Origin: Escherichia phage ESCO5 | DNA length: 64,000 bases | Direction: 5' to 3' (one strand) | Sequence record: NC_047776.2 | In this document: one piece after another, positions 31,378-45,973 of the stretch | Position numbering within the stretch: the stretch's first letter is position 1 | Layout of the letters: each line of letters opens with the position of its first letter | The notes under the pieces: model-generated | Database searches by the model: none | Seen by the model: only the letters and a program-made list of their open reading frames with translations | What the model was told of the DNA's origin: nothing | Position numbers and translations under genes: made by a program

Positions 31378-34050
31378 ATGTTTCCAATTCCAATATTTAC
31401 TATTATGACCAGCACTGGTGTCGTTCCTCTGCCAGCAGGTATTGTTAAAAAAGTAATCACTCTAGATTACCCAGATAATGCTGGCAATTCTAATAGCAGT
31501 TTAGCAATTTTGCTTAATGATGGTAGATTGTTTACTCAAGGCGCAAACCTTTTTGGTGAGATTGCAGATGGAACTCGTAGTGCACGATTCAATAATTTCC
31601 ACTTAGCTTCTACTGTAGTAGCGGATGTGTTTACCGCAGATCGTTGTTTTGTTATTAAAACTAACAGTGGGGGATGGCAATATTCAGGATTGACAGCAGG
31701 GTTGGTAGGATCTATAGCAGCAGGTGGTACGGATGCATGTGTAACTACTTGGACCAGCTTTCCATCTGTAATAACAGGGACTATCTCTTTAGCCAATCTT
31801 AAAGAGGTTAAGGGAGGATATAACAACACTCTCTGGTTGATGAATAGTGGTGTTCTTTATGGATCAGGTCAAAACACAGTAGGCAGTTTAGGTGCAAGTA
31901 CTACTAACGAAGTTTCTACTCCTCGTCAGATAACAAGTGCAGCAGTTGCTTTTGATGCAGGTTACAACCAATGCTCTTATGTCAACAATGTGGGAACCTT
32001 GCGTGTTTGTGGGGCTAGTAAAGGTTTAGCAGGTAATAATAACACAACAACAGCTTTTGTCAATGCCAAGATATCCGCTACTGAAACAGTGTATGTCAAA
32101 GATTACATCAATACAGTTTCCCAGACAATAGTTGTAGGAGATACCTCCGGTGGCACGGGTACAGTAAACTACTTATATGTTAGATCTAATACAGAAACAA
32201 CCTACACTAAACTGGACACCTTTGCAGCAGGTTTCTCAACATGGAAATTTCCACCAAGCCGCCACTCTTTTTTCGTTGGGATCAATAATTCCTTGTGGGC
32301 TATTGGTAAGAACTACACTGCAAACTTAGGTTTGGGGTATGATTCTGCGAGCGGAGATCCACTCCAAGTGGGAAAACCAGTTAAACCTGAAGGAGTGGGT
32401 TCCTGGGATATAAACAAGCTCACAAGCGTTCATACACTGAATATGGATGTTACTAACCAATTAGGTTATCAAGGAACCTTTTTCGTTTATAATGGAGATA
32501 TGTATTATTCAGGTATTTGGAAAGATGGGAAAGCCTCGTATCTGTTCAATAGTGGTCTAAACTATAATAAATTCACACCAATAGCAAGCTCCGTGATTAC
32601 AGGGGATGTTCTGGCAACTGGCTTAACTACAGATTCTTTAGGAATTTGTATTGTAGGTGGAACTAAACAGTTGACACATTCTGTTAGCCCAGAAGGAGGT
32701 AAACTTTTCAATATTAAATACACTTCTTCTGCCCCTGCAAACATGACAATATCATCTACTGGTTTAATGACTTTCCATGCAGAAGGTGGTTTTGATGCAG
32801 GTATGACAGCCTTAAACGCTGAAGGAACAATTTTATCAGATACCTCTGGAGGATATGCTTCAACATTGAGTGTTTACACCCCTAGCTTATCTGCGATGGA
32901 TGTAGGAACAACACAAACAATGGTAGCAGAAATAACACCAACAGGAGCAGCAAGCTTACCTGATATGGTTGTTGAGTATACAACTACAGATCCTAATGTT
33001 GCTACAGTAGATCCTACAACTGGTGTAATAACTGGTGTTGGTGATGGTGGTTGTAGGATTGGTTGCACAGCTACGTATCAAGGTGTTGTTACCGCTTCTG
33101 ATAGTTCTTATTTAACGGTGAATGCTGTTGCGGGAAAGGAGTTAGCTCCATCTCCGAGTAGTAGTTTAACGGTTCTAAACGGATATTTCAACCACTCGGC
33201 AGATGGGGCAATTACGTTCCCAACTTTATCGGGTACTGTTACACCAGCTAACTTTGTAGTTAAGGTGGATGACGTTGTAGTTCCTTCAAGTAAAGTAATA
33301 TTTAGAAACAAAGCTTTCTCTACAGTGGATAGTTATCCAGCAGGAGAATATAGACTGGCTATTGAATTTGCAAGTGCTTCAGTAGTTAATAGTGTGGAAG
33401 TGTCTATGGAAGCAAACCCAAGTCTTTTAGAACTTTGGGGCGGTAATAGAATCAGTTATTCTACAAGCCCAGCCTCACAATTCTTAAAAGGTTGTGCTAA
33501 CTTAAGACGAATAACTTCTGATTGTTTTAGTAACACATCTTACACCGGAACATCTATAAGCGGTATCTTCTCTGGCTGCACAAGTTTGACAGCTATCCCT
33601 GAAGGATTATTCAGTGATGCTTTATTTCCTTCAATGACAACAATGTCAAGCACGTTTGAAGGTTGTACATCTTTAACATCTATTCCTTCAGATTTATTTA
33701 AGAATCTGTCAAAAGTTACAAGATATTCTTACACCTTTAAAGATTGCACCTCTCTTGCAGAAGTTCCAGCAGGAATGTTTGATAATATTCCAACGAAAGT
33801 GACCTCTTTAACAGCTACATTCCAAGGTTGTTTAGGACTTACAGATTTTAATAAGATCTTTAATGACAACCCAGGGTTAACTGTTTGTGGTAAACGTGGA
33901 GCATTATCTTCTTTCTTTAGTGGATGCACAAATCTTACAGGAACAGGAACAACATTAACAAATACATTAGGCGGAGTAGCTAATAGTTACCTATTCAGGT
34001 ATTGCACAAAACTTTCTGATTATAACAACATTCCTTCCGGTTATAAATAA
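31378..34050 (+). CDS. tail fibre with Ig-like (Big_2-type) and BspA-type leucine-rich repeat C-terminal domain
   Basis: 890 aa; repeated FxGCTSLTxIPxxLF units (CANLRRITSDCF, GCTSLTAIPEGLF, GCTSLTSIPSDLF, DCTSLAEVPAGMF, GCLGLTDF); TTDPNVATVDPTTGVITGVGDGG Ig-like segment. Confidence 0.6.
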   Translation: MFPIPIFTIMTSTGVVPLPAGIVKKVITLDYPDNAGNSNSSLAILLNDGRLFTQGANLFGEIADGTRSARFNNFHLASTVVADVFTADRCFVIKTNSGGWQYSGLTAGLVGSIAAGGTDACVTTWTSFPSVITGTISLANLKEVKGGYNNTLWLMNSGVLYGSGQNTVGSLGASTTNEVSTPRQITSAAVAFDAGYNQCSYVNNVGTLRVCGASKGLAGNNNTTTAFVNAKISATETVYVKDYINTVSQTIVVGDTSGGTGTVNYLYVRSNTETTYTKLDTFAAGFSTWKFPPSRHSFFVGINNSLWAIGKNYTANLGLGYDSASGDPLQVGKPVKPEGVGSWDINKLTSVHTLNMDVTNQLGYQGTFFVYNGDMYYSGIWKDGKASYLFNSGLNYNKFTPIASSVITGDVLATGLTTDSLGICIVGGTKQLTHSVSPEGGKLFNIKYTSSAPANMTISSTGLMTFHAEGGFDAGMTALNAEGTILSDTSGGYASTLSVYTPSLSAMDVGTTQTMVAEITPTGAASLPDMVVEYTTTDPNVATVDPTTGVITGVGDGGCRIGCTATYQGVVTASDSSYLTVNAVAGKELAPSPSSSLTVLNGYFNHSADGAITFPTLSGTVTPANFVVKVDDVVVPSSKVIFRNKAFSTVDSYPAGEYRLAIEFASASVVNSVEVSMEANPSLLELWGGNRISYSTSPASQFLKGCANLRRITSDCFSNTSYTGTSISGIFSGCTSLTAIPEGLFSDALFPSMTTMSSTFEGCTSLTSIPSDLFKNLSKVTRYSYTFKDCTSLAEVPAGMFDNIPTKVTSLTATFQGCLGLTDFNKIFNDNPGLTVCGKRGALSSFFSGCTNLTGTGTTLTNTLGGVANSYLFRYCTKLSDYNNIPSGYK

Positions 34051-34052
34051 GA

Positions 34053-34080
34053 AAAGGAGCCATTTGGCTCCTTTCTTTTA
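34053..34080. terminator. bidirectional terminator between convergent arms
   Basis: AAAGGAGCC-attt-GGCTCCTTT with T-rich tracts on both sides; plus-strand gene ends 34050, minus-strand gene ends 34107. Confidence 0.75.
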
Positions 34081-34106
34081 TAAAAACTCTTTATAAATCA
34101 ATAAGA

Positions 34107-34994
34107 TCAGAACGGAATATCATCATCGAAGTCCATCGGAGGTTCTTCTTGATTACTTGGAGTTGGTTCTGGTTGTGGTTCAGGCTTTTTAACTTCTTTC
34201 TTCTCTTCTTTCTTAGGTTGTTCTGCGGAACCACGAATGGCAGCAGCAACTTTATCAGACAGAGCCAGAACTTTACGAGCAGAATCAATCAGATCTTCTA
34301 CAGATACAGTCTTAATGGTATGGTCTTTACAAGCATTAAGGATAGCGTGACCAACAGATGCCCCAAGATCATAATCATTAATATCAACGCCACGAGATTC
34401 AGCAATTTCAGATTTCAGCGTGACAGTTGCAGATTGAACAACCCCAGCGATATCGAAAGCATCGCCTTTAACACCATTACGAATCAGTTCCAGTGCACCA
34501 TTTACTGCGTGACCAGTTTCCAGACCTACAGTATCACGTTTTTTATAGGACTGTTTAGGAGCAGCATCGTTGGAACCTTTATTGCCAGAAGATTTGTTAG
34601 ACTTCTGAACACCATCGGTAGACAATACTGTAATACGAGATTTTTTAGTATTGTAGTAAGTTTTACCGCCTTTATTATCAACGCGATCAATATCAATACT
34701 TACTTCTACACCTTTTTCAATAGTGATCCAGTTATCACCTTCTTTGACTTGCAGGTTTTCATAACCTTCTTTCAGTTCAATGTCACCAAGAGAAATCCAA
34801 ACACCTTTCTCCTCTGGTTTAGCACCTTTCTCTTTCAGAACAAGAGAAGCTCGGTGAGTTGAAACAATCGTTTTTCCTTCCCAATGAAAAGTTTTAGGTT
34901 CAGCGAATTTATCCAGTTTAACGTAGTCTACGATACCAGTTGCATAAGTTACGGTTTTGCCTTTACGATCAGTTTCAGTATTAATTACGGACAT
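34107..34994 (-). CDS. ssb: single-stranded DNA-binding protein
   Basis: 295 aa; C-terminus EEPPMDFDDDIPF identical to the E. coli SSB tail motif; Gly/Ser/Lys-rich linker; N-terminal domain divergent. Confidence 0.75.
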   Translation of the reverse strand: MSVINTETDRKGKTVTYATGIVDYVKLDKFAEPKTFHWEGKTIVSTHRASLVLKEKGAKPEEKGVWISLGDIELKEGYENLQVKEGDNWITIEKGVEVSIDIDRVDNKGGKTYYNTKKSRITVLSTDGVQKSNKSSGNKGSNDAAPKQSYKKRDTVGLETGHAVNGALELIRNGVKGDAFDIAGVVQSATVTLKSEIAESRGVDINDYDLGASVGHAILNACKDHTIKTVSVEDLIDSARKVLALSDKVAAAIRGSAEQPKKEEKKEVKKPEPQPEPTPSNQEEPPMDFDDDIPF

Positions 34995-35010
34995 TATTAT
35001 CTCCTCTATA

Positions 35011-35403
35011 TTACATTAATTTTGCACAGAAAGAGCGGAGTCTTTCCATATCATCTTGCTCTAACAGGTATTTACCTTTACCTATTCCAACTCCAATTTC
35101 ACCGTTAGGGAAATGAACTATTTGCACTGGAAAACCTCCGAGTTTAATTGTGGCAGCTTTGCCTTCTTCGTCTATAACGTTTCGGATTGTATCTTGCAGT
35201 GAAATGAATTCTTTGTTTGTAACAGTGGCTTCAATTATTTCAGAGGTTTCAACACGAGCCGTTAGCTTCTTGTCTCCACCTTGAATAATCAAAATTTGAA
35301 AATAAAAAGAGTTGTCAAGACCTACAACATTTTTCTCAACTAGTGTCAAACTGGTATAATTTCCATAAACAGTTTCAACAGCTATTTTAGAACGTTCAGT
35401 CAT
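35011..35403 (-). CDS. hypothetical protein
   Basis: 130 aa ORF in replication arm. Confidence 0.5.
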   Translation of the reverse strand: MTERSKIAVETVYGNYTSLTLVEKNVVGLDNSFYFQILIIQGGDKKLTARVETSEIIEATVTNKEFISLQDTIRNVIDEEGKAATIKLGGFPVQIVHFPNGEIGVGIGKGKYLLEQDDMERLRSFCAKLM

Positions 35404-35448
35404 TGAATGCTATCCTATCATAAAATGTTTAATATTGTCAAGCTTTAA

Positions 35449-36042
35449 TTACCAAGGAATATCTTCTTCTTCCAATTTGGTATCTACTTGAGGTGGACGT
35501 GGAACCTTAACCTCTTTAACAAAACGAAGATATGGAAAACGTGTAGCGATTTTAATAACATGTTTGGCATCTTCTCTAACATCTTTGTGCAAGAAGCAGA
35601 TCCCTGTTTCCAAAGTTGTTTCAAAATCTTTAGAGTAATAACAATCCTTTCCATCAAATGCAGCCTGGCAGATGGACAGATCAAACTCATTCAGAAAGGT
35701 TGTCATTACATTTGGGTCCATAATCATAAGGTTGCAAAGCTGACCGTCACGTTCAAATTCAAAAACGTGTTTAAGACCAGTAACACCCTCGTAGTTATCA
35801 GAAGCCTCTTTGTTTCCTAGCTTACGAACATTAGTTCCCATTAAAGCAGATGCAATTAGTTCTTGTATTTGCTCTTCTGATCGATGTGCAGGAAGTGACG
35901 TATAGAAATCCAGATCACGTCCAGCAATATCAAGAATACGCCAATCACGAACAGCACCGCCAGCCAAGACAGAATTAGGATCAGCGATCTTTAAGACAGT
36001 AAGAATTTCTTTGGCAATGTTGATTTGTTTTGATTTAGTCAT
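35449..36042 (-). CDS. minimal nucleotidyltransferase (CCA-adding / poly(A) polymerase head-domain type)
   Basis: 197 aa; motif VLAGGAVRDWRILDIAGRDLDFYT matches the GGAVRD...RDxD signature of class II tRNA nucleotidyltransferases. Confidence 0.6.
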   Translation of the reverse strand: MTKSKQINIAKEILTVLKIADPNSVLAGGAVRDWRILDIAGRDLDFYTSLPAHRSEEQIQELIASALMGTNVRKLGNKEASDNYEGVTGLKHVFEFERDGQLCNLMIMDPNVMTTFLNEFDLSICQAAFDGKDCYYSKDFETTLETGICFLHKDVREDAKHVIKIATRFPYLRFVKEVKVPRPPQVDTKLEEEDIPW

Positions 36043-36253
36043 TGATACGCTCCACAGTTACTTTAACAATATCGTCCATATTAATCTCATCTCCCAAGAC
36101 TTCAATAACACCTTCCTCATAAAGTCGAGCACATTCTTCCCATACTTCTGCTTCCGTCATTCCACCTTCAATCTTATTTGCAAGACCTTTAATAACATCT
36201 TCATTTTGTTCATCAATAAGAATTGAAACATTAAAGCTCACTAGTTTACGCAT
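36035..36253 (-). CDS. hypothetical small acidic protein
   Basis: 72 aa; GGAG RBS. Confidence 0.5.
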   Translation of the reverse strand: MRKLVSFNVSILIDEQNEDVIKGLANKIEGGMTEAEVWEECARLYEEGVIEVLGDEINMDDIVKVTVERIND

Positions 36254-36263
36254 TGTTTTCTCC

Positions 36264-36431
36264 TTATACCTCTAAACGGAAAGTTTCTTTAGATACAAAA
36301 TCGTATCCACCTTTTTCAAGCCAGTCATTGTAAACCTCATCAGCTTGAGACTCTATCATAAAATACCGAGTGGTAATTTCGTCTCCGACAATACGCACAA
36401 TTTTATAGCAAATCATGATACCATTTCCCAT
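36264..36431 (-). CDS. hypothetical small protein (not in ORF track)
   Basis: About 55 aa; ATG overlaps upstream stop as TAATG; fills otherwise empty 177-nt gap; next gene RBS follows its stop. Confidence 0.35.
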   Translation of the reverse strand: MGNGIMICYKIVRIVGDEITTRYFMIESQADEVYNDWLEKGGYDFVSKETFRLEV

Positions 36432-36622
36432 TAATCTTCCTCCAGATCAATTTCATTATAGCAATGTATGCAGTAGCCATCGTTGTGCATATGTTGTTCA
36501 TAAGACATATCTTTACCACAAGACCAACAACGAATATCGCCATCGTCCCATTCACGTTCTTCTTCGCCTTCAAATGCATCTGGTAGGTAAGGCATACCAA
36601 GACAATCTAAATCGTAATGCAT
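36431..36622 (-). CDS. small zinc-ribbon protein
   Basis: Start moved to internal ATG (AGGAGG RBS); CxxC...CxxC (CWSCG...CIHC); track start 36706 would overlap polymerase 3' end. Confidence 0.55.
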   Translation of the reverse strand: MHYDLDCLGMPYLPDAFEGEEEREWDDGDIRCWSCGKDMSYEQHMHNDGYCIHCYNEIDLEED

Positions 36623-36635
36623 ATCTCCTCCTATA

Positions 36636-36653
36636 AAGGGGCAGAAGCCCCTT
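36636..36653 (-). other. RNA stem-loop downstream of polymerase gene
   Basis: AAGGGGC-ttct-GCCCCTT hairpin between polymerase stop and next RBS; no strong U tract. Confidence 0.4.
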
Positions 36654-36671
36654 ATAAAACAATATGTTAGA

Positions 36672-39600
36672 TCAATGACAGGATGCCCAGGAATTACCCA
36701 CGTCATATCCGGCAGTAAGCTGAACGTTAAGATTGTAAAATTCTCCAGCCTTAGTAACAGCTAAAGCAGCAAGTTCACCTGCCCGACTATAAGCTGTAAA
36801 CCATCCACCTTTGGGAGATTCATGAATGTTAGCCCAAATTTGCCCTGTCTCTTTTTCCTTATTATGCTTCCATTCTTCAACTTTAGCAAGGCATTCTTTA
36901 TCAATTTTCTTTTGTTCTTCAGGATCGTCTACTTTCTTCCAACCTAATGATTCAGGTGAAAACCATTTGAATTCTACAAGGTTACGAGAAACTTCAAGCT
37001 GGGCTTCATCGTGGTATGCAATCATTTGTTGCACGAAGTCTTTATTCTTCCAGTCATCTTTAAAGAAGTCAACACTTAGTCCTTCTTCTTCGATCATATC
37101 GTCATAAATAACCATTGCACGTTTAGCACAGATAACCCCACCACTTTGGAACAGAGAGTTAAGAATCGCGTGAGCAGAACGAGTAGGAACCTTACGACCG
37201 TCAATACCCAAAACATACTGTTTACCAGTCTTAACCCAGAAATCGTTTAAACGTTCTTTAAGACGCGCCAGTGGGAATGCAGCTTCCCAGAAAGCATCGA
37301 ACACCAGTTGCCCTGTAAACTTATCGCTACCAATTGTTTTAGCAACCTTGTCGGCTTGTGCACCATAGGTAATACCATACTTAACAGATTTAGCAGGACT
37401 ACGTTCAAATTTACGTCCAATAGTTTCAGTGATACGTTTTGCCATCATGGTATGAACATCGTTAGGCTTCTCTAACAAGAGAGCGTTACAGTATTCATGA
37501 GGCTCCGGTTCGTAGCGCCAACAGTTTCCTGTGATGGTAATGCAGTCTTTCTGACGCATGACCCACGTACCAAGTTCTGTTTGTGGACACCAAACATCCT
37601 CTACACCCCACTCTTCAATAGTCAAACTTTGAACAGGAATGTGAGAGCGGTTAGCCAATGTTACCACTTTTACTTTCTGCTCTTTTGTATTGAAAGCTAC
37701 AGAGATATTGCCTCCATGCACCAGGTACGAGGCAGTTAAAGCTGCTTCAAAAAGTTCACCTGGGTTCTGCGCCCAACGCCAAACAGGTTTTTGTTTATGT
37801 TCATGCCAGTAACCATCTGCAATCAAGAAACCTTCCAAGAAAGCTACACGCTCGGCATGAGACATATTAACTACACGCTCTACCCACGGAACATCCCATT
37901 TACCTTGTTGAACAGAAGTTAAACTATTTACCTGATCTTGTTCCATGTTAAATGGAGCATTACAAATAATATTATCTCCTGTGCAAAGCTCGGCAGTTGT
38001 TCTGACTTTAGGCACATAAGTATTCCCTTTACTACGGGTATTAACATACCAACGGTGATCTGCTGTTGCACGGTAAGTGTGTGATTTCCCTTTAATCTCA
38101 AACGTCTTACTATTTTTATAGAAGACCTTACCTTTTACTTTAGTCCATTCTTTCAGACCTGTTTCAGCATTGTACCCTAAAATCTCATCCCCTTCCTTCA
38201 GGTCGTGATATCCTACCCAACCTTTACGAGTCAAAGCTTGAGCATCCATCGGCACACAGTAATGCGACTCAATCTTTGCTTCCAAAGAGTCGAAGTCATA
38301 ACCGATCTGGAAATATTTAGGAACTTCTACACCAAACAAGTTACGCATCTCCCATCCAAACAAAGATGTGACACGAGGGATATTGGCTACAGACCTATGC
38401 TTCATACGAGAGGTTGCAGCATCACATGTAGCGGCTGGGGTAGGAATACGCCCATCTGCCCTTACTGCGGCTAAGAAACCTTTATCGTATTCTTGATCTT
38501 CTTCATCTTCTTCCCAATCAGCACCGCCACCTAAAATAGAGTTCCTACGATGCTTATACGTTAAGTATTCTACAATCTGAGTAGCATAAGGAAATTTCTC
38601 ACCCAAAGCTTGCAGGTTAGGACAGATTTCTTTTTCCTGACCTTTGGTAAAACATGGGTTAGTCAATACTTTAAGACCGCGACCTTTACCTTTTGCTATA
38701 CGCTCTTGAATCTTCCTTTCCAAGGTTTCCGGTGCGCACTCCAGATGATCACAACGGTCCTGACAAAAATTAGAAGATAAAGTTTGCTCAACGTAAGCTC
38801 GAATACCTTTCTGAAGTTCTTCCTCACTCTTTTTAATCTTGGTGCCAGATTTAAGAGTCAAATCTTTATCTTTATATTCCGATGGTACCCAACCTAATCC
38901 TACAAGCCAGTTTTTAATATGGGTTGTATCGTTCAATGTCGCAGGGATGTTAGGATCACACAGAGGCTCATCTGCTGCAACTGGCAGTTTCCACTCTTTC
39001 CCCAACATAACTAACCACCAATCGCCATCCCTCTCTTCCAAATGACCATCATGTTTTTTAGCAAAATTGATCATATGGTTAGTTGGTTCGAGGTTCTTTT
39101 TAATTTGCAATTTAGGCGGAATAAAAGCTTTAAGATAACCTTTTGTTGCTGGTTTAGGTGGCAAAATAGGCTCAACGAGTAAACGAAGACGCTCCATTTC
39201 TGCATCCAAAAAAGCAAGGTTCTCTTCTGCTTGCTTCATATTAAAAGCAAACCCACGGTGTTCCTGGCGCGTGATAATGTCTGCTACACGTTGTTCAAGT
39301 TCAAATGGACCTTCCCATTTATCATAATCACCCCATTCTTCCATAAGGTAGTTATATACGCTCGTATTGGCTTTGTTGTCATAGATACAGTAATAAAGCA
39401 TATCCGCAGCAAAAGTCTTAAATCGATCTTCTTCTGGAATCTCTTTACGGAAATCTATTTTTACATCACCACCTGCTTTTCGAGAAAGTGCTGCCAAGCT
39501 ATGTCCTGATTTGCCCTCAATCTTTCGATCTGGGTTTAACACTTTACTCAAAATCAAGGAGTCAATAAGTTTTACCTTATTTTTGCCCCACGTATTATAT

Positions 39601-40004
39601 TTAACACTGTAATCTAATCCATAAAACAGTTTTGTAGCCAACCAGTCGTAGTTGATACCGTTGTGAGCCACAGCCATTTCAACCAGATATTCAGGCTTGT
39701 CTTTAAAATAACCTTCATGATTAATAAAGTCTGGGAAATCTTTTAGTTGAAAATGCGTGTAATCTTGCGCCACATACTCTTTAAGAACATATGTATATTT
39801 ACCATCTGACTCTTCATAAGGACGCCCATCAAAGATGTATTTAGGGCCATCGTGGAAAGCTACTATTTCTCCTGTTTCATGGTTCTCTAAGACAATACAG
39901 TGCATTTGAAATGTGTCTTTGAGACGATAAGGACTAGCTAAATAATCAATAGTGTCATTATTCAACAATCCGTTTGCTTCAATATCCCATGTAAACTTAC
40001 TCAC
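36672..40004 (-). CDS. DNA polymerase, family A (T7 gp5-like), intein-containing
   Basis: 1110 aa; N-terminal exo motif WDIEANGL; motif A YDFDSLEAKI; motif B SPAKSVKYGITYGAQ; C-terminus ends ...SWASCH (T7: ...NWAICH). Confidence 0.9.
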   Translation of the reverse strand: MSKFTWDIEANGLLNNDTIDYLASPYRLKDTFQMHCIVLENHETGEIVAFHDGPKYIFDGRPYEESDGKYTYVLKEYVAQDYTHFQLKDFPDFINHEGYFKDKPEYLVEMAVAHNGINYDWLATKLFYGLDYSVKYNTWGKNKVKLIDSLILSKVLNPDRKIEGKSGHSLAALSRKAGGDVKIDFRKEIPEEDRFKTFAADMLYYCIYDNKANTSVYNYLMEEWGDYDKWEGPFELEQRVADIITRQEHRGFAFNMKQAEENLAFLDAEMERLRLLVEPILPPKPATKGYLKAFIPPKLQIKKNLEPTNHMINFAKKHDGHLEERDGDWWLVMLGKEWKLPVAADEPLCDPNIPATLNDTTHIKNWLVGLGWVPSEYKDKDLTLKSGTKIKKSEEELQKGIRAYVEQTLSSNFCQDRCDHLECAPETLERKIQERIAKGKGRGLKVLTNPCFTKGQEKEICPNLQALGEKFPYATQIVEYLTYKHRRNSILGGGADWEEDEEDQEYDKGFLAAVRADGRIPTPAATCDAATSRMKHRSVANIPRVTSLFGWEMRNLFGVEVPKYFQIGYDFDSLEAKIESHYCVPMDAQALTRKGWVGYHDLKEGDEILGYNAETGLKEWTKVKGKVFYKNSKTFEIKGKSHTYRATADHRWYVNTRSKGNTYVPKVRTTAELCTGDNIICNAPFNMEQDQVNSLTSVQQGKWDVPWVERVVNMSHAERVAFLEGFLIADGYWHEHKQKPVWRWAQNPGELFEAALTASYLVHGGNISVAFNTKEQKVKVVTLANRSHIPVQSLTIEEWGVEDVWCPQTELGTWVMRQKDCITITGNCWRYEPEPHEYCNALLLEKPNDVHTMMAKRITETIGRKFERSPAKSVKYGITYGAQADKVAKTIGSDKFTGQLVFDAFWEAAFPLARLKERLNDFWVKTGKQYVLGIDGRKVPTRSAHAILNSLFQSGGVICAKRAMVIYDDMIEEEGLSVDFFKDDWKNKDFVQQMIAYHDEAQLEVSRNLVEFKWFSPESLGWKKVDDPEEQKKIDKECLAKVEEWKHNKEKETGQIWANIHESPKGGWFTAYSRAGELAALAVTKAGEFYNLNVQLTAGYDVGNSWASCH
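37524..38258 (-). mobile_element. candidate intein with LAGLIDADG-type motif inserted in polymerase motif A
   Basis: Residues 583-827: starts with Cys (CVPMDAQAL), block B-like ATADHRWYV, LAGLIDADG-like AFLEGFLIADGY, ends ...ITGN followed by Cys; flanking extein aligns to T7 DASGLELRCLAHF / RFDNGEYAHEIL. Confidence 0.55.
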
Positions 40005-41304: not shown

Positions 41305-41333
41305 GTATTTTTAATAAAAGGGCCGAAGCCCTT
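41305..41333 (-). terminator. rho-independent terminator after primase-helicase gene
   Basis: On minus strand AAGGGC-uucg-GCCCUU followed by UUUAUUAAAAAU. Confidence 0.55.
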
Positions 41334-43110
41334 AATAATTGCTATCCGTAGGCAAATTAGCAGGATTGTTGAAATACTGCTCTTTGTCATGCAGAGTTGC
41401 AGTTCTAATGTCATAGTAAAACTGCCCTGCCGGACCAGTTTCCGAGAACTCACGGTTTTTTAGGATAAAGCAATGAGTCGTATTGCGTTCTACAGGGTCT
41501 TCAGCGGCTTTATCTCGTTCCAAAGCCAAGGTAATACCAGCACCTTTAGCCAAGAAACTACTACCCATTGCATCGTCCTCTGTTAAGTGTTCATTGCCAC
41601 CATTAGCCGATTTCTTAACGTGTGAGATGACGATAATAGTTATAGCATACTCTTTCATGATGCGCTTCAACCATGTTGCTAACTCTTCCTGGGCTTGAAC
41701 ATCCATACCAGAAAGCAAATCAGAATAAGGGTCGATAACAAGAATTGTTACTCCAAAATAGATGATCATCTCCAAAACTTTTTCTTTGATAGACTCCACA
41801 TCTGCTCCACGATCATCACACACATAAAAACGTGGTGATCCATCTTCTCTTTCGTAAAAATCCAGGATTTTTTCTTTATTCTCTTCCAAGATTTGAAATT
41901 TCTCTTCCGGTGTTTTCCTGTGTAGAGGAATATGCAGGAACGAGGACAACAGGTTACGAGAATATTTCTTATAAGTTGCTTCCAAGGACAGAATACCTAG
42001 GGTATGTTCTGGGTGCGCAACAATAATATGTTTGGTGATCTCGTTCACCATCAAAGTTTTACCGATACTGGTCTTTGCCAGGATGACTGTAATCTCTTCC
42101 TCTACTAAACCACCACCCAGCATATTTGCAGCAACACGCATAAAAGGAGGCAAGGTAATCATCTTGGATTCCAAGCATTCTAATGCAGCTTCATACAAGA
42201 CATTAGAAGCATAAACACCTGCTGGGGTGTATAGACGAGCACTCCAAAAAGCTTTTACGAAATCTTTTGCACGACCTTCTTCCAGATACTGATTGGCATC
42301 CTTAAGATCCATCTGCATACGATAGACTTTGTTACGAGGCAGCACCTTAACAATATTTTCAAATGCCTCATTACCTGCTTTGTCGTTATCCATGCAAACA
42401 ATAATCTTCTTAAATTTTTCAAAGAAAGGATATTGTGCCTGAACTTGTTTATACATACTGGTTTCACCAGTTGTGCCACTTACTACGGCTGGAAGCTCAT
42501 ATTTACTGTCCAAGTTTTCAGATAGCATTTGATAAGCTGCCAGAGCATCGTGTTCACCACCTGTAATTACAACAGTATGAGAACGGTCTGCAAAACGAAT
42601 TTGTCCAAAAAGATCTACATCTTTACCTACTTGACCAATAGGTTTACTGAAATCTTTAGGATGAATACGACGCTTAAAACCAACCAATTCTTTACCGATG
42701 GTAGTCGGATATAAACAACTTTCTACTACCATCTGATCTCCTTCCTGACGGTATTCATAACGAACACCATAGAAAGATGAAACTTTTTCTTTAATGCCTC
42801 GATAACCACGTGGGTTGGTTGATGTTTCTTGAACAATTTTACGATGAATCTGTTTATTAAATTCCGAACCCACAATCTCCTCCTCTTCTTCTAAAACTTC
42901 ACCATTTTCTCGTAACCATTCTACGCTAGGAATAGTGTATTCACACGCAAAGCACTTAGCACCTTTATGCTCTCCATTAGAATCTAATCCGTAAACCATC
43001 AGGTTATTACGAGAGCGATCCTTGCCATTTTTCATGCAGCGCGGACAACCTGTATGTCCTTCCTTGCTAAGATCAACATCAAATCCATATTTAGTTATAA
43101 TGTGCGACAC
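41332..43110 (-). CDS. bifunctional DNA primase-helicase (T7 gp4-like)
   Basis: 592 aa; N-terminal zinc ribbon CPRC...CFAC; TOPRIM-like IIVCMDNDKAGNEA; Walker A ILAKTSIGKT and Walker B LVIDPYSDL in C-terminal helicase half. Confidence 0.85.
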   Translation of the reverse strand: MSHIITKYGFDVDLSKEGHTGCPRCMKNGKDRSRNNLMVYGLDSNGEHKGAKCFACEYTIPSVEWLRENGEVLEEEEEIVGSEFNKQIHRKIVQETSTNPRGYRGIKEKVSSFYGVRYEYRQEGDQMVVESCLYPTTIGKELVGFKRRIHPKDFSKPIGQVGKDVDLFGQIRFADRSHTVVITGGEHDALAAYQMLSENLDSKYELPAVVSGTTGETSMYKQVQAQYPFFEKFKKIIVCMDNDKAGNEAFENIVKVLPRNKVYRMQMDLKDANQYLEEGRAKDFVKAFWSARLYTPAGVYASNVLYEAALECLESKMITLPPFMRVAANMLGGGLVEEEITVILAKTSIGKTLMVNEITKHIIVAHPEHTLGILSLEATYKKYSRNLLSSFLHIPLHRKTPEEKFQILEENKEKILDFYEREDGSPRFYVCDDRGADVESIKEKVLEMIIYFGVTILVIDPYSDLLSGMDVQAQEELATWLKRIMKEYAITIIVISHVKKSANGGNEHLTEDDAMGSSFLAKGAGITLALERDKAAEDPVERNTTHCFILKNREFSETGPAGQFYYDIRTATLHDKEQYFNNPANLPTDSNY

Positions 43111-43122
43111 TTTGTTCTCCTG

Positions 43123-43401
43123 TTAAAATGGTTCGTTAGTCTCCATCATATATTCTGCTTCTAGTTCTTCCATGTGCTTTCTAAATTGGAAAGCAATTTC
43201 TGCTACAGTTACATTTAAATCTTTTTCAAAAACTTCTGTAGATCCTTCATAAAAACGAATACCGTCAATTAAAAGCCCTCCGTGGTAATCCCAATCGCTT
43301 TCACGAGAAAGTGGATTAGGTTCTTCATAATAGTAATCCACCTCCACAACCAAGGCTTTCCCGTTACGAGTGGTGTATTCAAAATCAAAAGTGTTAATCA
43401 T
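43123..43401 (-). CDS. hypothetical protein
   Basis: 92 aa ORF. Confidence 0.5.
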   Translation of the reverse strand: MINTFDFEYTTRNGKALVVEVDYYYEEPNPLSRESDWDYHGGLLIDGIRFYEGSTEVFEKDLNVTVAEIAFQFRKHMEELEAEYMMETNEPF

Positions 43402-44345
43402 TATAGCTCCTCAAATAAAAGTCTACGACGCTCATTCAACACATCAATGTGATAATGAGTCCTGACATACTTAGCTAATGCTAATCCTTTCTCCATGCAA
43501 ACATCGGGAGCACTTAATAAGTATTCCGTAATATCTTTCCACTCGGAAGGTGTTTCAGCAAAGAATAACAAATCTTTAAACTCTTGTGTATGATAATTCT
43601 CACGAGGAGAGCAGATTAAAGGTAAACCCTTAGCACCTGCCTCAAGAATTTTAAGATTGCTTTTTGCATTATTAAACACGTTATCGATCAATGGTGCAAG
43701 ACTGATTTGATGACCATCGTAAGATTCCATGTAGTAGGCATATGGTCTTACACCTTCATAAACACAAGTTGGTGCTACATTTTCCCTGATTAAAGACCAT
43801 TCACGACTACTTAAAACTTCAGAATCCCTACGAAAACCACATATTGTAAGATCTTTACCAAAATCGGGCAAGATAGCCAAATCTTGTTTATGTGTTTCAC
43901 TTCCAGCCCAGACTAATGGAGTTTTGGAGTAGCGATCACGGGTCAACACAAATTGACCTTCATCGTAAGGAAGTCCATTAGGGATTATGTGCACATTATC
44001 ATTGTATTGTGAAAGTTCAACTTGCAAGGCAGGTGTCGTAGTTGTAACAAGATCACTGTGCTCTAAAAACCATTTTAAATGTTCACGAATACCTGATTCA
44101 AAAATACCTTCTAACATGTGTCCTTTTGGAATAACTAAAGAGTCATCCAAATCCATAACCATTTTAAAGCCCAGGTTTTTAAGGGCTAAAAAGCCCTCTT
44201 TACCTTTTGTTGGCACTCCGTTAAAAACGAAAACGTTGTGTTTAGGTTGTGAAGAGAACTGCCTTGAGTAAGGCAGCACTACCCTATGGAAATCGCAGAC
44301 ACTATAATTGATTCCGTTACGATTGTCAAGAATTATTTGTCCCAT
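43401..44345 (-). CDS. putative GT-B fold glycosyltransferase (paralog 1)
   Basis: 314 aa; C-terminal NAKSNLKILEAGAKGLPLICS resembles GT-B donor-binding motif; paralogous to adjacent gene. Confidence 0.5.
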   Translation of the reverse strand: MGQIILDNRNGINYSVCDFHRVVLPYSRQFSSQPKHNVFVFNGVPTKGKEGFLALKNLGFKMVMDLDDSLVIPKGHMLEGIFESGIREHLKWFLEHSDLVTTTTPALQVELSQYNDNVHIIPNGLPYDEGQFVLTRDRYSKTPLVWAGSETHKQDLAILPDFGKDLTICGFRRDSEVLSSREWSLIRENVAPTCVYEGVRPYAYYMESYDGHQISLAPLIDNVFNNAKSNLKILEAGAKGLPLICSPRENYHTQEFKDLLFFAETPSEWKDITEYLLSAPDVCMEKGLALAKYVRTHYHIDVLNERRRLLFEEL

Positions 44346-44352
44346 ACTTCAC

Positions 44353-45300
44353 CTACAAACTTTCAATAACCTGGCGTCGCAATTCGTTTGCATCTGCCAG
44401 ATTATAATGTGTTCGAACATGTTCCGCTAAGAACAAGCCGCGATCTTCCCGATAGTTCGGATTGCGAAGAAGCTTAACAATTTCGTAATGCCATTCAGCT
44501 TTATTCTCTGCGTAAGCAACAGCGCGAGCATCTACAGGGTTAAAATAAGGTAATACCTTAGAACAAACAATCGGAATACCTTTTGCCCCAGCTTCAAGGA
44601 TTTTGAGATTACTTTTACAATTATTAAAATCATTGTCTACCAAAGGAGCTATAGCAATAGCATGACTTTCGTAAACACTCATGTAATTATCTAAATCTTT
44701 TACAGCAGCTTTATATTTGGCGTTTGGTAAATTTCTACGGATCTTAATCCACTCTTGCCCTGTGATACTCTGCGATGCTTCATATCCTGCAATAGTAAGA
44801 AGTTCATCATCGAAAGTATTAGAGACTAGTCGTAAATCGGGTTCGTGACTAGCACCGCCAGCCCATACAACAGGGGTACCGGATGAACGATCATTTGACA
44901 AAGTGAATTGTCCGCTATCAAAAGGAAGTGCATTTCGGATCACAACAACATTCCTATTTAAGTGACGGATCTTATATGCCAAATATTCCGTAGTCACAAT
45001 GACCACATCGGCAAGCTTAACCATAGCTACAATAGCATGAGTGTTTGACTCATATAAACTTGCTAAATAATGTTCTGGATTAAGTTGGTAGAAATCATCT
45101 AAATCTACAACAATCTTAACACCTTGACGTTTCAGTGACAGAACATATTCTGCCCCTTTAGAATGAATACGGTTAAACACGACAACATCTTTCTTAGGCT
45201 GAAAATTATTGTTGTTAAATGGTATAACAATACGATGATAATCACAACCACTGTGAGGTTTTGCATCAATTTTCAGTTTAGTCCATTTTTTATTTGACAT
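44353..45300 (-). CDS. putative GT-B fold glycosyltransferase (paralog 2)
   Basis: Start moved to ATG with GAGGAGG RBS, giving 315 aa, matching paralog length; shares CDYHRIVIPF / CDFHRVVLPY and KSNLKILEAGAKGIPIVCS motifs. Confidence 0.5.
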   Translation of the reverse strand: MSNKKWTKLKIDAKPHSGCDYHRIVIPFNNNNFQPKKDVVVFNRIHSKGAEYVLSLKRQGVKIVVDLDDFYQLNPEHYLASLYESNTHAIVAMVKLADVVIVTTEYLAYKIRHLNRNVVVIRNALPFDSGQFTLSNDRSSGTPVVWAGGASHEPDLRLVSNTFDDELLTIAGYEASQSITGQEWIKIRRNLPNAKYKAAVKDLDNYMSVYESHAIAIAPLVDNDFNNCKSNLKILEAGAKGIPIVCSKVLPYFNPVDARAVAYAENKAEWHYEIVKLLRNPNYREDRGLFLAEHVRTHYNLADANELRRQVIESL

Positions 45301-45973
45301 GTGCCAGTGCCTCCTCATAAGAAATTCGGATTTTCCCATTTTTAATATCTTCTAAAGACGCTTTATATTCTTCCCAGTTAATGCCAATAGCAACTTCTTT
45401 CTCTTCTTTTGTCAGATTAGCAAAAGGCATAGGATTGTTTCCAAAAACATCGTCTGGGTGGATATAAGCCATGATACGAAGTGGACAAGGTATTGCCTGA
45501 ATGCCCTGATTCAAACCAGCAGCTTTCAAACGGTGTACCCATTCAGCATCTTCAAAACCATAGCCGTGAGTGTAAGGGCGGAAATAACCCATCTTCTCAA
45601 CAACGGCACGAGAATACATTGCAAATTGACACATTGCAAGTTCCCAGAGAATAACTTCTCCTTTACTCCCAACAACTTTATCTTTGAAATACTCCGGCAT
45701 ACCAAAGAAATCCCATCCTCCAGAGACAGCTTGATCTACAAAATATGTTTCCCATCCCTCCATGATTGGGTAGCAATCGTCGTCAAAAATAAACCAATAA
45801 TCATAACCTTCTTCATAAAACTGGTGCATAAGTTCATTCCTGGCGTAAGCTACACCTTTACGATCTGGATCGTTGAATACTCGAAAATCTGCATGTGGAT
45901 CTGTTACAAGGTAGTCTTTAAGTGGACGGACACCTACAGTGATAACACCCACTCCGATTTTAATATTTTCCAT
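45290..45973 (-). CDS. putative GT-A fold glycosyltransferase
   Basis: 227 aa; DxD-type motif in WFIFDDDCYP and GYGFEDAEWVHRL motif typical of family-2-like transferases. Confidence 0.5.
   Translation of the reverse strand: MENIKIGVGVITVGVRPLKDYLVTDPHADFRVFNDPDRKGVAYARNELMHQFYEEGYDYWFIFDDDCYPIMEGWETYFVDQAVSGGWDFFGMPEYFKDKVVGSKGEVILWELAMCQFAMYSRAVVEKMGYFRPYTHGYGFEDAEWVHRLKAAGLNQGIQAIPCPLRIMAYIHPDDVFGNNPMPFANLTKEEKEVAIGINWEEYKASLEDIKNGKIRISYEEALAHVK

What the first reader, a model, noticed from the sequence alone, without database searches (positions are those of the whole stretch)
34107..34994. Phage SSB carrying an exact copy of the host SSB C-terminal interaction tail
The last residues EEPPMDFDDDIPF match the E. 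coli SSB C-terminus, which recruits many host replication and repair proteins, while the N-terminal DNA-binding region is divergent and the protein is unusually long (295 aa). This suggests the phage SSB competes for or hijacks host SSB-interacting partners.
Basis: partly seen in the sequence, partly recalled or inferred. Interest (0 to 1): 0.45.

Follow-up and report, generated by a model that had tools for sequence, protein, structure and literature searches.

The report
Phage SSB-like protein with host tail

Summary
Confirmed. Window 34107-34994 (minus strand) is a 295-aa ORF, REC_00254 of Escherichia phage vB_EcoM_REC (Phapecoctavirus). Its last 12 residues, EPPMDFDDDIPF, are identical to the E. 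coli SSB C-terminus.

- OB fold, residues 1-125
- disordered basic linker
- four-helix domain, residues 154-254
- disordered Lys/Glu/Pro linker
- the tip

It is the only SSB candidate in a 156-kb genome that carries a T7-like replisome (Pol A, gp4-like primase-helicase).

A profile of the OB domain alone finds 181 cluster representatives, and 97 of the 139 newly retrieved ones inspected end in an acidic [ILV]PF tip. The tip is therefore an ancestral, selected feature, not a recent capture of host DNA.

The rV5-type relative Bas52_0087 was reported in April 2026 as an "SSB-like" trigger of the DRT10 defence, with the same tip and a proposed link to host exonuclease I. No one has shown ssDNA binding or host-partner binding.

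Verdict: a new member of a known kind, of moderate interest.

Two side observations seem more novel. The adjacent nucleotidyltransferase has a conserved DDIPW tip. Many mobile-element SSBs carry a conserved 15-aa cap after DDDIPF.

The parts
34107..34994 (-). Whole ORF (295 aa plus TGA stop). It is REC_00254 of Escherichia phage vB_EcoM_REC and belongs to PHROG 4477 ('unknown function').
34620..34994 (-). Residues 1-125: predicted OB-fold domain and putative ssDNA-binding module. Conserved aromatics are H47, W66, W89 and Y114; conserved basics are K34, K41, K84 and K111.
34536..34619 (-). Residues 126-153: short basic, Ser/Lys/Asn-rich disordered linker (residues 131-153 have pI about 10.4). 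In rV5-type relatives this position holds an extra beta domain of about 85 aa, the 'second OB' of Bas52_0087, which is absent here.
   Evidence: pLDDT is below 50 for residues 132-149. The alignment with bas53_0086 and rV5 gp209 is.
34233..34535 (-). Residues 154-254: four-helix domain of unknown role, possibly oligomerisation. It begins at the near-invariant D154, which aligns with the D252 site where a Bas52_0087 mutation escapes DRT10.
34146..34232 (-). Residues 255-283: intrinsically disordered Lys/Glu/Pro-rich linker. It is variable in sequence and length across homologues.
   Evidence: pLDDT is below 50 for residues 260-277.
34110..34145 (-). Residues 284-295, EPPMDFDDDIPF: the SSB C-terminal tip, identical to the last 12 residues of E. 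coli SSB.
   Evidence: The DNA is 32/36 identical to the E. coli ssb 3' end. Wobble positions vary among phages that carry the same peptide.
35001..35006 (-). Shine-Dalgarno sequence GAGGAG, 6 nt upstream of the ATG.
34052..34075 (.). Bidirectional intrinsic-terminator hairpin shared with the convergent tail-fibre-like gene (31378-34050). In some close relatives an HNH endonuclease gene lies between the ssb-like stop codon and this hairpin.
35449..36042 (-). Neighbouring 197-aa nucleotidyltransferase gene. Its product ends ...LEEEDIPW, a second SSB-tip-like C-terminus on a variable linker. It is included because it may use the same docking sites.

Best explanation

Proposed mechanism:
- The N-terminal OB fold coats ssDNA at the phage replication fork. 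The fork is run by a T7-like set of enzymes: family-A polymerase and a gp4-like primase-helicase.
- The four-helix domain probably mediates self-association.
- The flexible Lys/Glu/Pro linker presents a C-terminal tip identical to the host SSB tip.
- The tip should fit the hydrophobic pocket and basic ridge that host SSB-interacting proteins use (exonuclease I, RecQ, RecJ, PriA, RNase HI, Pol III chi, DnaG and others).
- Phage ssDNA therefore looks like host SSB-coated DNA to these enzymes, and the abundant phage protein also competes with host SSB for them.

Status of each step:
- Shown here: the ORF, the exact tip, the predicted domain layout, the genomic context, and the family-wide conservation of the tip.
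- Inferred: ssDNA binding, oligomerisation, and binding of host partners.
For: 1. Exact 12-residue identity with the E. coli SSB tip. The tip is invariant or nearly so in 64 aligned homologues, while the preceding linker varies.

2. A profile built from the OB domain alone, with no tail in the query, retrieves 181 cluster representatives out of 1.84 billion. Of the 139 newly retrieved ones inspected, 97 end in acidic-[ILVMC]-P-[FWY] and 14 more have acidic aromatic ends. The OB domain and the tip are therefore coupled across the whole family.

4. The disordered linker plus tip architecture matches bacterial SSB.

5. Context: the gene closes the minus-strand replication block, which holds Pol A (36672-40004) and a Toprim+DnaB_C primase-helicase (41332-43110). 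No other SSB is annotated in the 156-kb genome, and tblastn with three canonical SSBs finds nothing but this tail.

6. Literature (preprint 10.64898/2026.04.29.721553):
   - Bas52_0087 is described as SSB-like with an FDDDIPF tip.
   - Point mutants D252V and Y351C escape the DRT10 defence.
   - Overexpressing host exonuclease I weakens that defence.
   - The near-identical Bas53 protein aligns with this ORF, and D252 falls on the near-invariant D154.

7. Wobble positions of the tip codons differ freely between phages with the same peptide, with 2-8 of 11 codons identical to E. coli. This shows selection on the peptide.
Against: - No experiment shows ssDNA binding or partner binding for any member of the family.
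- The OB domain is near neutral (pI 6.75), not basic.
- There is no sequence or profile similarity to canonical SSB (hhalign probability 0.4%).
- The phage has a T7-like replisome. In T7, the acidic, Phe-terminated tail of gp2.5 binds the phage polymerase and helicase (established knowledge, also stated in the text read). The primary partner here could therefore be a phage protein.
- In the preprint, expressing Bas52_0087 alone did not activate DRT10 or harm cells. Gross titration of host partners is therefore not obviously toxic.
Confidence: 0.55

Rival explanations
1. The protein is the phage SSB, but the tip mainly couples it to the phage's own replisome, as the acidic Phe-terminated tail of T7 gp2.5 couples it to T7 polymerase and helicase. 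On this view, identity with the host tip is secondary or opportunistic.
For: The replisome is T7-like: a family-A polymerase and a Toprim+DnaB_C primase-helicase. A second phage protein, the nucleotidyltransferase two genes upstream, carries a conserved DDIPW tip. In Seunavirus a primase-helicase ends ...DMDDDTPF. This fits a phage-internal docking code. The role of the T7 gp2.5 tail is stated in the text read.
Against: Residue-for-residue identity with the host tip over 12 positions, including the non-acidic EPPM part, goes beyond what an acidic, aromatic-ended tail needs. T7 gp2.5 and T4 gp32 do not resemble the host tip (my own knowledge). The same PPMDFDDDIPF recurs in relatives from phages of Enterobacterales. 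The preprint links the rV5-type relative genetically to host exonuclease I.
Confidence: 0.25
2. The protein is not a replicative SSB. It is a decoy or host-takeover factor whose main job is to sequester or redirect host SSB-interacting enzymes, such as exonuclease I, away from phage DNA or defence-generated ssDNA. The OB fold would serve another ligand.
Against: No other SSB candidate exists in a 156-kb genome with its own polymerase, primase-helicase and ligase. The gene is syntenic with the polymerase in distant relatives. Aromatic and basic residues in the OB domain are conserved. The family is found across the rV5-like phage groups sampled, as expected of a core replication gene.
Confidence: 0.12
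3. The tail is a recent chimera: the 3' end of the host ssb gene, or of a prophage or plasmid ssb, was recombined onto a phage gene.
For: The DNA is 88-89% identical to E. coli ssb over 43-45 nt, extending a few bases past the stop codon. Eight of 12 codons are identical against 5.0 expected from phage codon usage (P about 0.03). These include two CCG proline codons, which make up only 7% of proline codons in this phage.
Against: The tip is present in nearly all relatives found with an OB-only profile. A 99%-identical protein in a sister phage shares only 4 of 11 tip codons with E. coli, and the range across phages is 2-8 of 11. The similarity ends within about 6 nt after the stop and does not extend upstream into the linker.
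Confidence: 0.04

Closest known systems
Bas52_0087 of BASEL phage Bas52 (Vequintavirinae), together with rV5 gp209 and bas53_0086
   Same: Same protein family: tblastn matches at about 36% identity over the regions shared with rV5-type proteins, and the proteins align with this ORF. Shared features are the N-terminal OB fold, a helical domain with the conserved Asp that is mutated in DRT10 escape mutants (D252 aligns with D154 here), a disordered C-terminal linker, and the FDDDIPF tip. Position next to the replication genes is also shared. The preprint already interprets it as SSB-like, with a tip that may engage host exonuclease I.
   Different: The window protein is 295 aa against about 408-423 aa. 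It lacks the second beta domain of about 85 aa between the OB fold and the helical domain. Its tip matches E. coli SSB over 12 residues rather than 7. It comes from a different subfamily (Stephanstirmvirinae). No DRT10 or other phenotype has been tested for it.
E. coli SSB (PF00436 family; PDB 1eqq, 1kaw)
   Same: OB fold at the N-terminus, a disordered linker, and an identical C-terminal EPPMDFDDDIPF tip.
   Different: There is no sequence or profile similarity in the OB domain. An extra four-helix domain is present. The linker is Lys/Glu/Pro-rich rather than Gly/Gln/Pro-rich. The oligomeric state is unknown.
Canonical SSB homologues of phages, prophages and plasmids (for example P1 Ssb, ECP1 gp52, Vibrio phage 455E52-1 P0032)
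   Same: These are mobile-element SSBs that keep the host-type DDDIPF tip.
   Different: They are true PF00436 homologues, so the tail is inherited together with the fold. Here the same tip sits on an OB domain with no detectable sequence relationship to them.
T7 gp2.5 (and T4 gp32)
   Same: Non-canonical phage SSBs with an OB fold and an acidic C-terminal tail needed for protein-protein contacts. Both belong to a replisome with a family-A polymerase and a fused primase-helicase.

Membership tests
Bacterial-type SSB (Pfam PF00436) | Sequence homology of the OB domain to the SSB family | tested here: not met
   No Pfam match. phmmer and hmmsearch against PDB match only the last 25 or so residues. 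hhalign of the OB alignment against canonical SSBs gives probability 0.4%.
Bacterial-type SSB (Pfam PF00436) | OB fold of the nucleic-acid-binding type | tested here: met
Bacterial-type SSB (Pfam PF00436) | Disordered linker ending in the acidic tip ...DDDIPF | tested here: met
   Residues 260-277 have pLDDT below 50. The last 12 residues are identical to E. coli SSB.
Bacterial-type SSB (Pfam PF00436) | High-affinity ssDNA binding and homotetramer formation through the OB domain | not testable with these tools
   This needs purified protein (EMSA, SEC-MALS).
rV5-like phage 'SSB-like' family (PHROG 4477; Bas52_0087) | Sequence homology across the OB and helical domains | tested here: met
   PHROG 4477 at E = 4e-97. 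137 homologues. tblastn matches to rV5-type phages. Alignment with bas53_0086 and rV5 gp209.
rV5-like phage 'SSB-like' family (PHROG 4477; Bas52_0087) | C-terminal FDDDIPF-type tip | tested here: met
rV5-like phage 'SSB-like' family (PHROG 4477; Bas52_0087) | Two OB-fold domains, as described for Bas52_0087 | tested here: not met
   Only one beta domain is predicted. The second domain of about 85 aa is a gap in the alignment. This ORF is a short-architecture variant.
rV5-like phage 'SSB-like' family (PHROG 4477; Bas52_0087) | Triggers the DRT10 defence | not testable with these tools
   This has been shown only for Bas52.
T7 gp2.5-like SSB | gp2.5-type OB fold or sequence family | tested here: not met
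T7 gp2.5-like SSB | Acidic tail ending in an aromatic residue that binds the phage polymerase and helicase | tested here: inconclusive
   The acidic, Phe-terminated tail is present. Its partners are unknown.

The most novel reading that the evidence does not exclude
The SSB tip may be a general docking code that this phage lineage attaches to several of its own proteins and that can be switched off.

- The adjacent nucleotidyltransferase keeps an invariant DDIPW tip on a variable linker.
- In related and unrelated mobile elements, the DDDIPF tip of SSBs (and the DDDTPF end of one primase-helicase) is followed by a conserved cap of about 15 aa, AP[IV]GLQY plus a hydrophobic/His stretch.
- The cap buries the terminal Phe carboxylate that the solved host SSB-partner complexes I know of recognise (my own knowledge).
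- The cap is under selection at the protein level. It is often, but not always, linked to an HNH homing endonuclease gene inserted at the ssb stop codon.

If the cap re-targets or masks the tip, phages would have two allelic states of SSB, one engaging host partners and one capped. This would be an undescribed layer of control over the host SSB interaction network.
Probability: 0.2. Interest if true: 0.65.

Novelty: new member of a known kind. Interest (0 to 1): 0.35.

Why it matters
The SSB tip is the hub through which more than a dozen E. coli genome-maintenance enzymes find ssDNA (my own knowledge).

Here a large lytic phage puts the identical tip on an OB domain with no detectable sequence relationship to SSB. 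This shows strong selection to stay compatible with that hub. It also gives a clean natural chimera for asking which host enzymes a phage needs or must neutralise.

Phage SSBs are also emerging as triggers of bacterial defences, including Retron-Eco8, Hna, AbpAB, DARNA and DRT10. This ORF extends the DRT10-trigger family to Stephanstirmvirinae, in a shorter architecture. That helps map which part is sensed.

Practically, most GenBank records and PHROGs list this family as hypothetical or of unknown function. An annotation as 'SSB-like, host-type SSB-Ct tip' can therefore be transferred.

Tried and rejected
1. Pfam, PDB sequence and PDB profile searches found nothing but the tail. SSB PHROGs match only residues 247-295. 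Existing 'SSB' annotations may therefore rest on the tail alone.

3. BFVD returned only uncharacterised viral proteins.

4. hhalign against canonical SSBs was negative. The canonical profile had only 3 sequences, so this is a weak test.

5. [quoted passage not shown] It was discarded.

6. A weak tblastn hit of E. coli SSB to L012:3717-3995 (E = 9) lies in a protein with goF-like PHROG matches, not an SSB.

7. I first thought the 15-aa extension after DDDIPF was a by-product of the HNH insertion, read through from the element's 5' end. I rejected this because:
   - The extension occurs without any HNH gene in L005, L008, L009, L016 and L017.
   - Its codons vary at wobble positions.

8. Recent capture of host ssb DNA was considered and rejected.

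9. The tail-plus-extension profile search returned only short fragments, so it cannot give the frequency of the extension among full-length SSBs.

10. Literature searches for Phapecoctavirus plus SSB, and for an HNH gene at ssb, found nothing relevant.

Full report
**Identity of the window.** Window 33000-37000 is 100% identical to Escherichia phage vB_EcoM_REC (OM386667.1; Phapecoctavirus, Stephanstirmvirinae; 156.3 kb). The ORF is REC_00254. That record annotates it as 'single-stranded DNA-binding protein', but most sister genomes list it as 'hypothetical protein'.

**The observation.**
- The gene is on the minus strand, 34994 to 34110, with a TGA stop at 34107-34109. It encodes 295 aa.
- It has a GAGGAG ribosome-binding site. 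A bidirectional terminator hairpin at 34052-34075 is shared with the convergent 890-aa tail-fibre-like gene.
- The product ends TPSNQEEPPMDFDDDIPF. A phmmer search against PDB aligns it with the end of E. coli SSB (1eqq...APSNEPPMDFDDDIPF). The last 12 residues are identical.

**What the rest of the protein is.**
- Pfam gives nothing above threshold.
- PHROGs places it in phrog_4477, 'unknown function'. SSB PHROGs match only residues 247-295, that is, the tail.
- A profile of 64 homologues searched against all PDB sequences again matches only the tail.
- AlphaFold2 with that alignment predicts:
  - a beta-rich domain at residues 1-125
  - a disordered segment at 132-149
  - four helices at 156-253
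  - a disordered segment at 260-277
  - the tip
- Modelled alone, the N-terminal domain is confident (pLDDT 91.6, pTM 0.82).
- hhalign against a small canonical SSB profile is negative.
- Conserved aromatics (H47, W66, W89, Y114) and lysines (K34, K41, K84, K111) are candidates for a ssDNA-binding face. This is inference.
- The helical domain has only generic structural matches.
- BFVD shows only uncharacterised viral relatives.

**Genomic context.**
- The gene closes a minus-strand replication block. The block contains a family-A DNA polymerase (36672-40004) and a Toprim+DnaB_C primase-helicase (41332-43110), which is a T7-like replisome.
- The rest of the genome encodes ligase, exonucleases, a UvrD-type helicase and ribonucleotide reductase, but no other annotated SSB.
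- tblastn with three canonical SSBs finds only this tail.

**The family.**
- 137 homologues were found by sequence, and all complete ones carry a D-F-D-D-D-I-P-F-like tip. P294 and F295 are invariant, and D290 and D292 are nearly so.
- The family spans Stephanstirmvirinae, Vequintavirinae (rV5), phiTE-like, SSE121-like, 4MG and KB57-like phages.
- The key test was a profile of the OB domain alone, which cannot be attracted by the tail.
  - It retrieves 181 representatives among 1.84 billion proteins.
  - Of the 139 newly retrieved ones inspected, 97 end in acidic-[ILVMC]-P-[FWY].
  - Another 14 have acidic aromatic ends.
  - Several more end DDIPF plus one residue.
- None of 48 distant members has any Pfam domain.
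- The tip is therefore an ancestral, defining part of a Pfam-orphan OB-fold family, not a recent acquisition.

**Was the tail captured from the host?**
- The DNA encoding EPPMDFDDDIPF is 32/36 identical to E. coli ssb. Eight of 12 codons are identical against 5.0 expected (P about 0.03). Two of them are CCG, a rare proline codon in this phage.
- However, a 99%-identical protein in a sister phage shares only 4 of 11 tip codons with E. coli. Across nine loci with the same or a similar peptide the range is 2-8 of 11.
- Wobble positions drift freely, so the peptide is what is selected. Recent capture is not supported.

**Literature.**
- The bioRxiv preprint 10.64898/2026.04.29.721553 (April 2026) describes Bas52_0087 of a Vequintavirinae phage. 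By AlphaFold2 it is an 'SSB-like' protein with two OB folds, a disordered C-terminus and an FDDDIPF tip.
- Mutations D252V and Y351C let the phage escape the DRT10 reverse-transcriptase defence. Overexpressing host exonuclease I (SbcB) weakens the defence. The authors suggest competition with SbcB.
- The Bas53 protein bas53_0086 is 408 aa, has D252 and Y351, and ends AFDDDIPF. It aligns with the window ORF. D252 falls on the near-invariant D154 at the start of the helical domain, and Y351 falls on A250 in the last helix. The window protein lacks the second beta domain of about 85 aa.
- I could not fetch QXV84166.1 itself. The equivalence of Bas52_0087 and bas53_0086 rests on matching residues, motif and gene order.
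- Phage SSBs are also known triggers of other defences.

**Conclusion on mechanism.** Most likely this is the phage's replicative SSB, and its tip docks on the pockets that host SSB partners use. This both recruits them to phage ssDNA and competes with host SSB. Fold, context and conservation are shown; ssDNA binding and partner binding are inferred. The main rival is that the tip chiefly serves the phage's own T7-like replisome, and both could be true. A pure decoy role and a recent chimera are less likely.

**Side observation 1: a second tip.** The nucleotidyltransferase two genes upstream (35449-36042) ends EEEDIPW. All ten Stephanstirmvirinae homologues end [DE]DDIPW (one ends DDSFPW) after a linker that varies in sequence and length. 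Two distant homologues lack it.

**Side observation 2: a cap after the tip.**
- 17 of the 120 listed homologues of the SSB-like protein continue past ...DDDIPF with about 15 aa: [AS]P[ILV]GLQY followed by a hydrophobic/His stretch.
- In a sister Phapecoctavirus (L002), an HNH endonuclease gene sits exactly at the former stop codon, with its ATG inside the Q-Y codons. The window has the empty site.
- The cap is not merely read-through of the element.
  - It occurs without an HNH gene in L005.
  - It occurs on canonical PF00436 SSBs: Vibrio phage 455E52-1, E. coli phage ECP1 and two prophages.
  - It occurs on a Seunavirus primase-helicase.
- Its codons use all four Gly codons and vary at other wobble positions. 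This indicates selection on the peptide.
- 215 phage records hold tail plus cap. 37 of 120 short SSB fragments from the tail-plus-cap profile search, many of them from Enterobacterales genomes, carry it.
- Its function is unknown. It would bury the terminal carboxylate that host partners recognise (my own knowledge of SSB-Ct complexes).

Noticed in passing
Homologues only, not in the window: P0001, P0013, P0029, P0048, P0094, P0102 and others; L002:4886-4933, L005:4231-4278, L006:4117-4161, L008:1537-1584, L009:1537-1584, L010:2531-2578, L011:1861-1908: A conserved cap of about 15 aa, [AS]P[ILV]GL[QP]Y plus a hydrophobic/His stretch, follows the ...DDDIPF tip. It is seen in 17 of the 120 listed homologues, in canonical SSBs of Vibrio and E. 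coli phages and prophages, and on a Seunavirus primase-helicase (...DMDDDTPFAPIGLQYANHAIYVL). Its codons vary at wobble positions, so the peptide is under selection. It would make the tip Phe internal. Its function is unknown, and I found no literature on it.
   Followed up: partly
Window 34076-34109 (empty site), compared with L002:4886-5399: There is a presence/absence polymorphism of an HNH endonuclease gene (164 aa, PHROG 2340) at the stop codon of the SSB-like gene within Phapecoctavirus. The HNH start codon lies inside the Q-Y codons of the cap in L002, L010 and L011. In L006 the HNH gene starts 10 nt after the stop. The conserved tip or cap coding DNA looks like a homing site. The L006 HNH protein itself ends ...EIKIPF.
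   Followed up: partly
Window 35449-36042 (-), tip at 35452-35472: The 197-aa nucleotidyltransferase (PHROG 10174; weak PolyA_pol head match) ends ...LEEEDIPW. All ten Stephanstirmvirinae homologues keep [DE]DDIPW (one has DDSFPW) after a variable linker. This is an SSB-tip-like docking motif on a second phage protein.
   Followed up: partly
Window 36672-40004 (-): The 1110-aa DNA polymerase ORF matches Pfam DNA_pol_A only at residues 845-1009. By eye, a block of about 250 aa in the middle looks like an intein (it starts ...SHYCVPMDAQALTRKGW and ends ...ITITGNCWRY). Pfam reported no intein family at E <= 0.001. Relatives have polymerase ORFs of different lengths (1189 aa in L002).
   Followed up: no
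Window 43401-44345 (-) and 44353-45339 (-): Two adjacent ORFs of 314 and 328 aa have clearly related C-termini (...YVRTHYHIDVLNERRRLLFEEL and ...HVRTHYNLADANELRRQVIESL). They look like tandem paralogues in the replication block. Their function was not examined.
   Followed up: no
Window 43123-43401 (-): A 92-aa ORF immediately upstream of the primase-helicase gene on the minus strand ends ...EYMMETNEPF, an acidic, Pro-Phe-terminated end. It has no Pfam match.
   Followed up: no
L016:2195-2731 and L017:2169-2692 (prophage regions of two bacterial assemblies): Canonical prophage ssb genes that carry the cap are split into two ORFs: a PF00436 part, then a part holding the linker, tip and cap. This is why the tail-plus-cap search returned mostly short 'partial' SSB fragments. 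I did not determine whether these are frameshifted pseudogenes, sequencing errors or something programmed.
   Followed up: no
L011:1801-1908 (rV5 gp209), compared with L015 (Bas53): In rV5 the capped allele has a degenerate tip (DFCDDIPF), whereas the uncapped Bas53 allele keeps AFDDDIPF. This may hint at relaxed selection on the tip once it is capped, but it is a single case.
   Followed up: no
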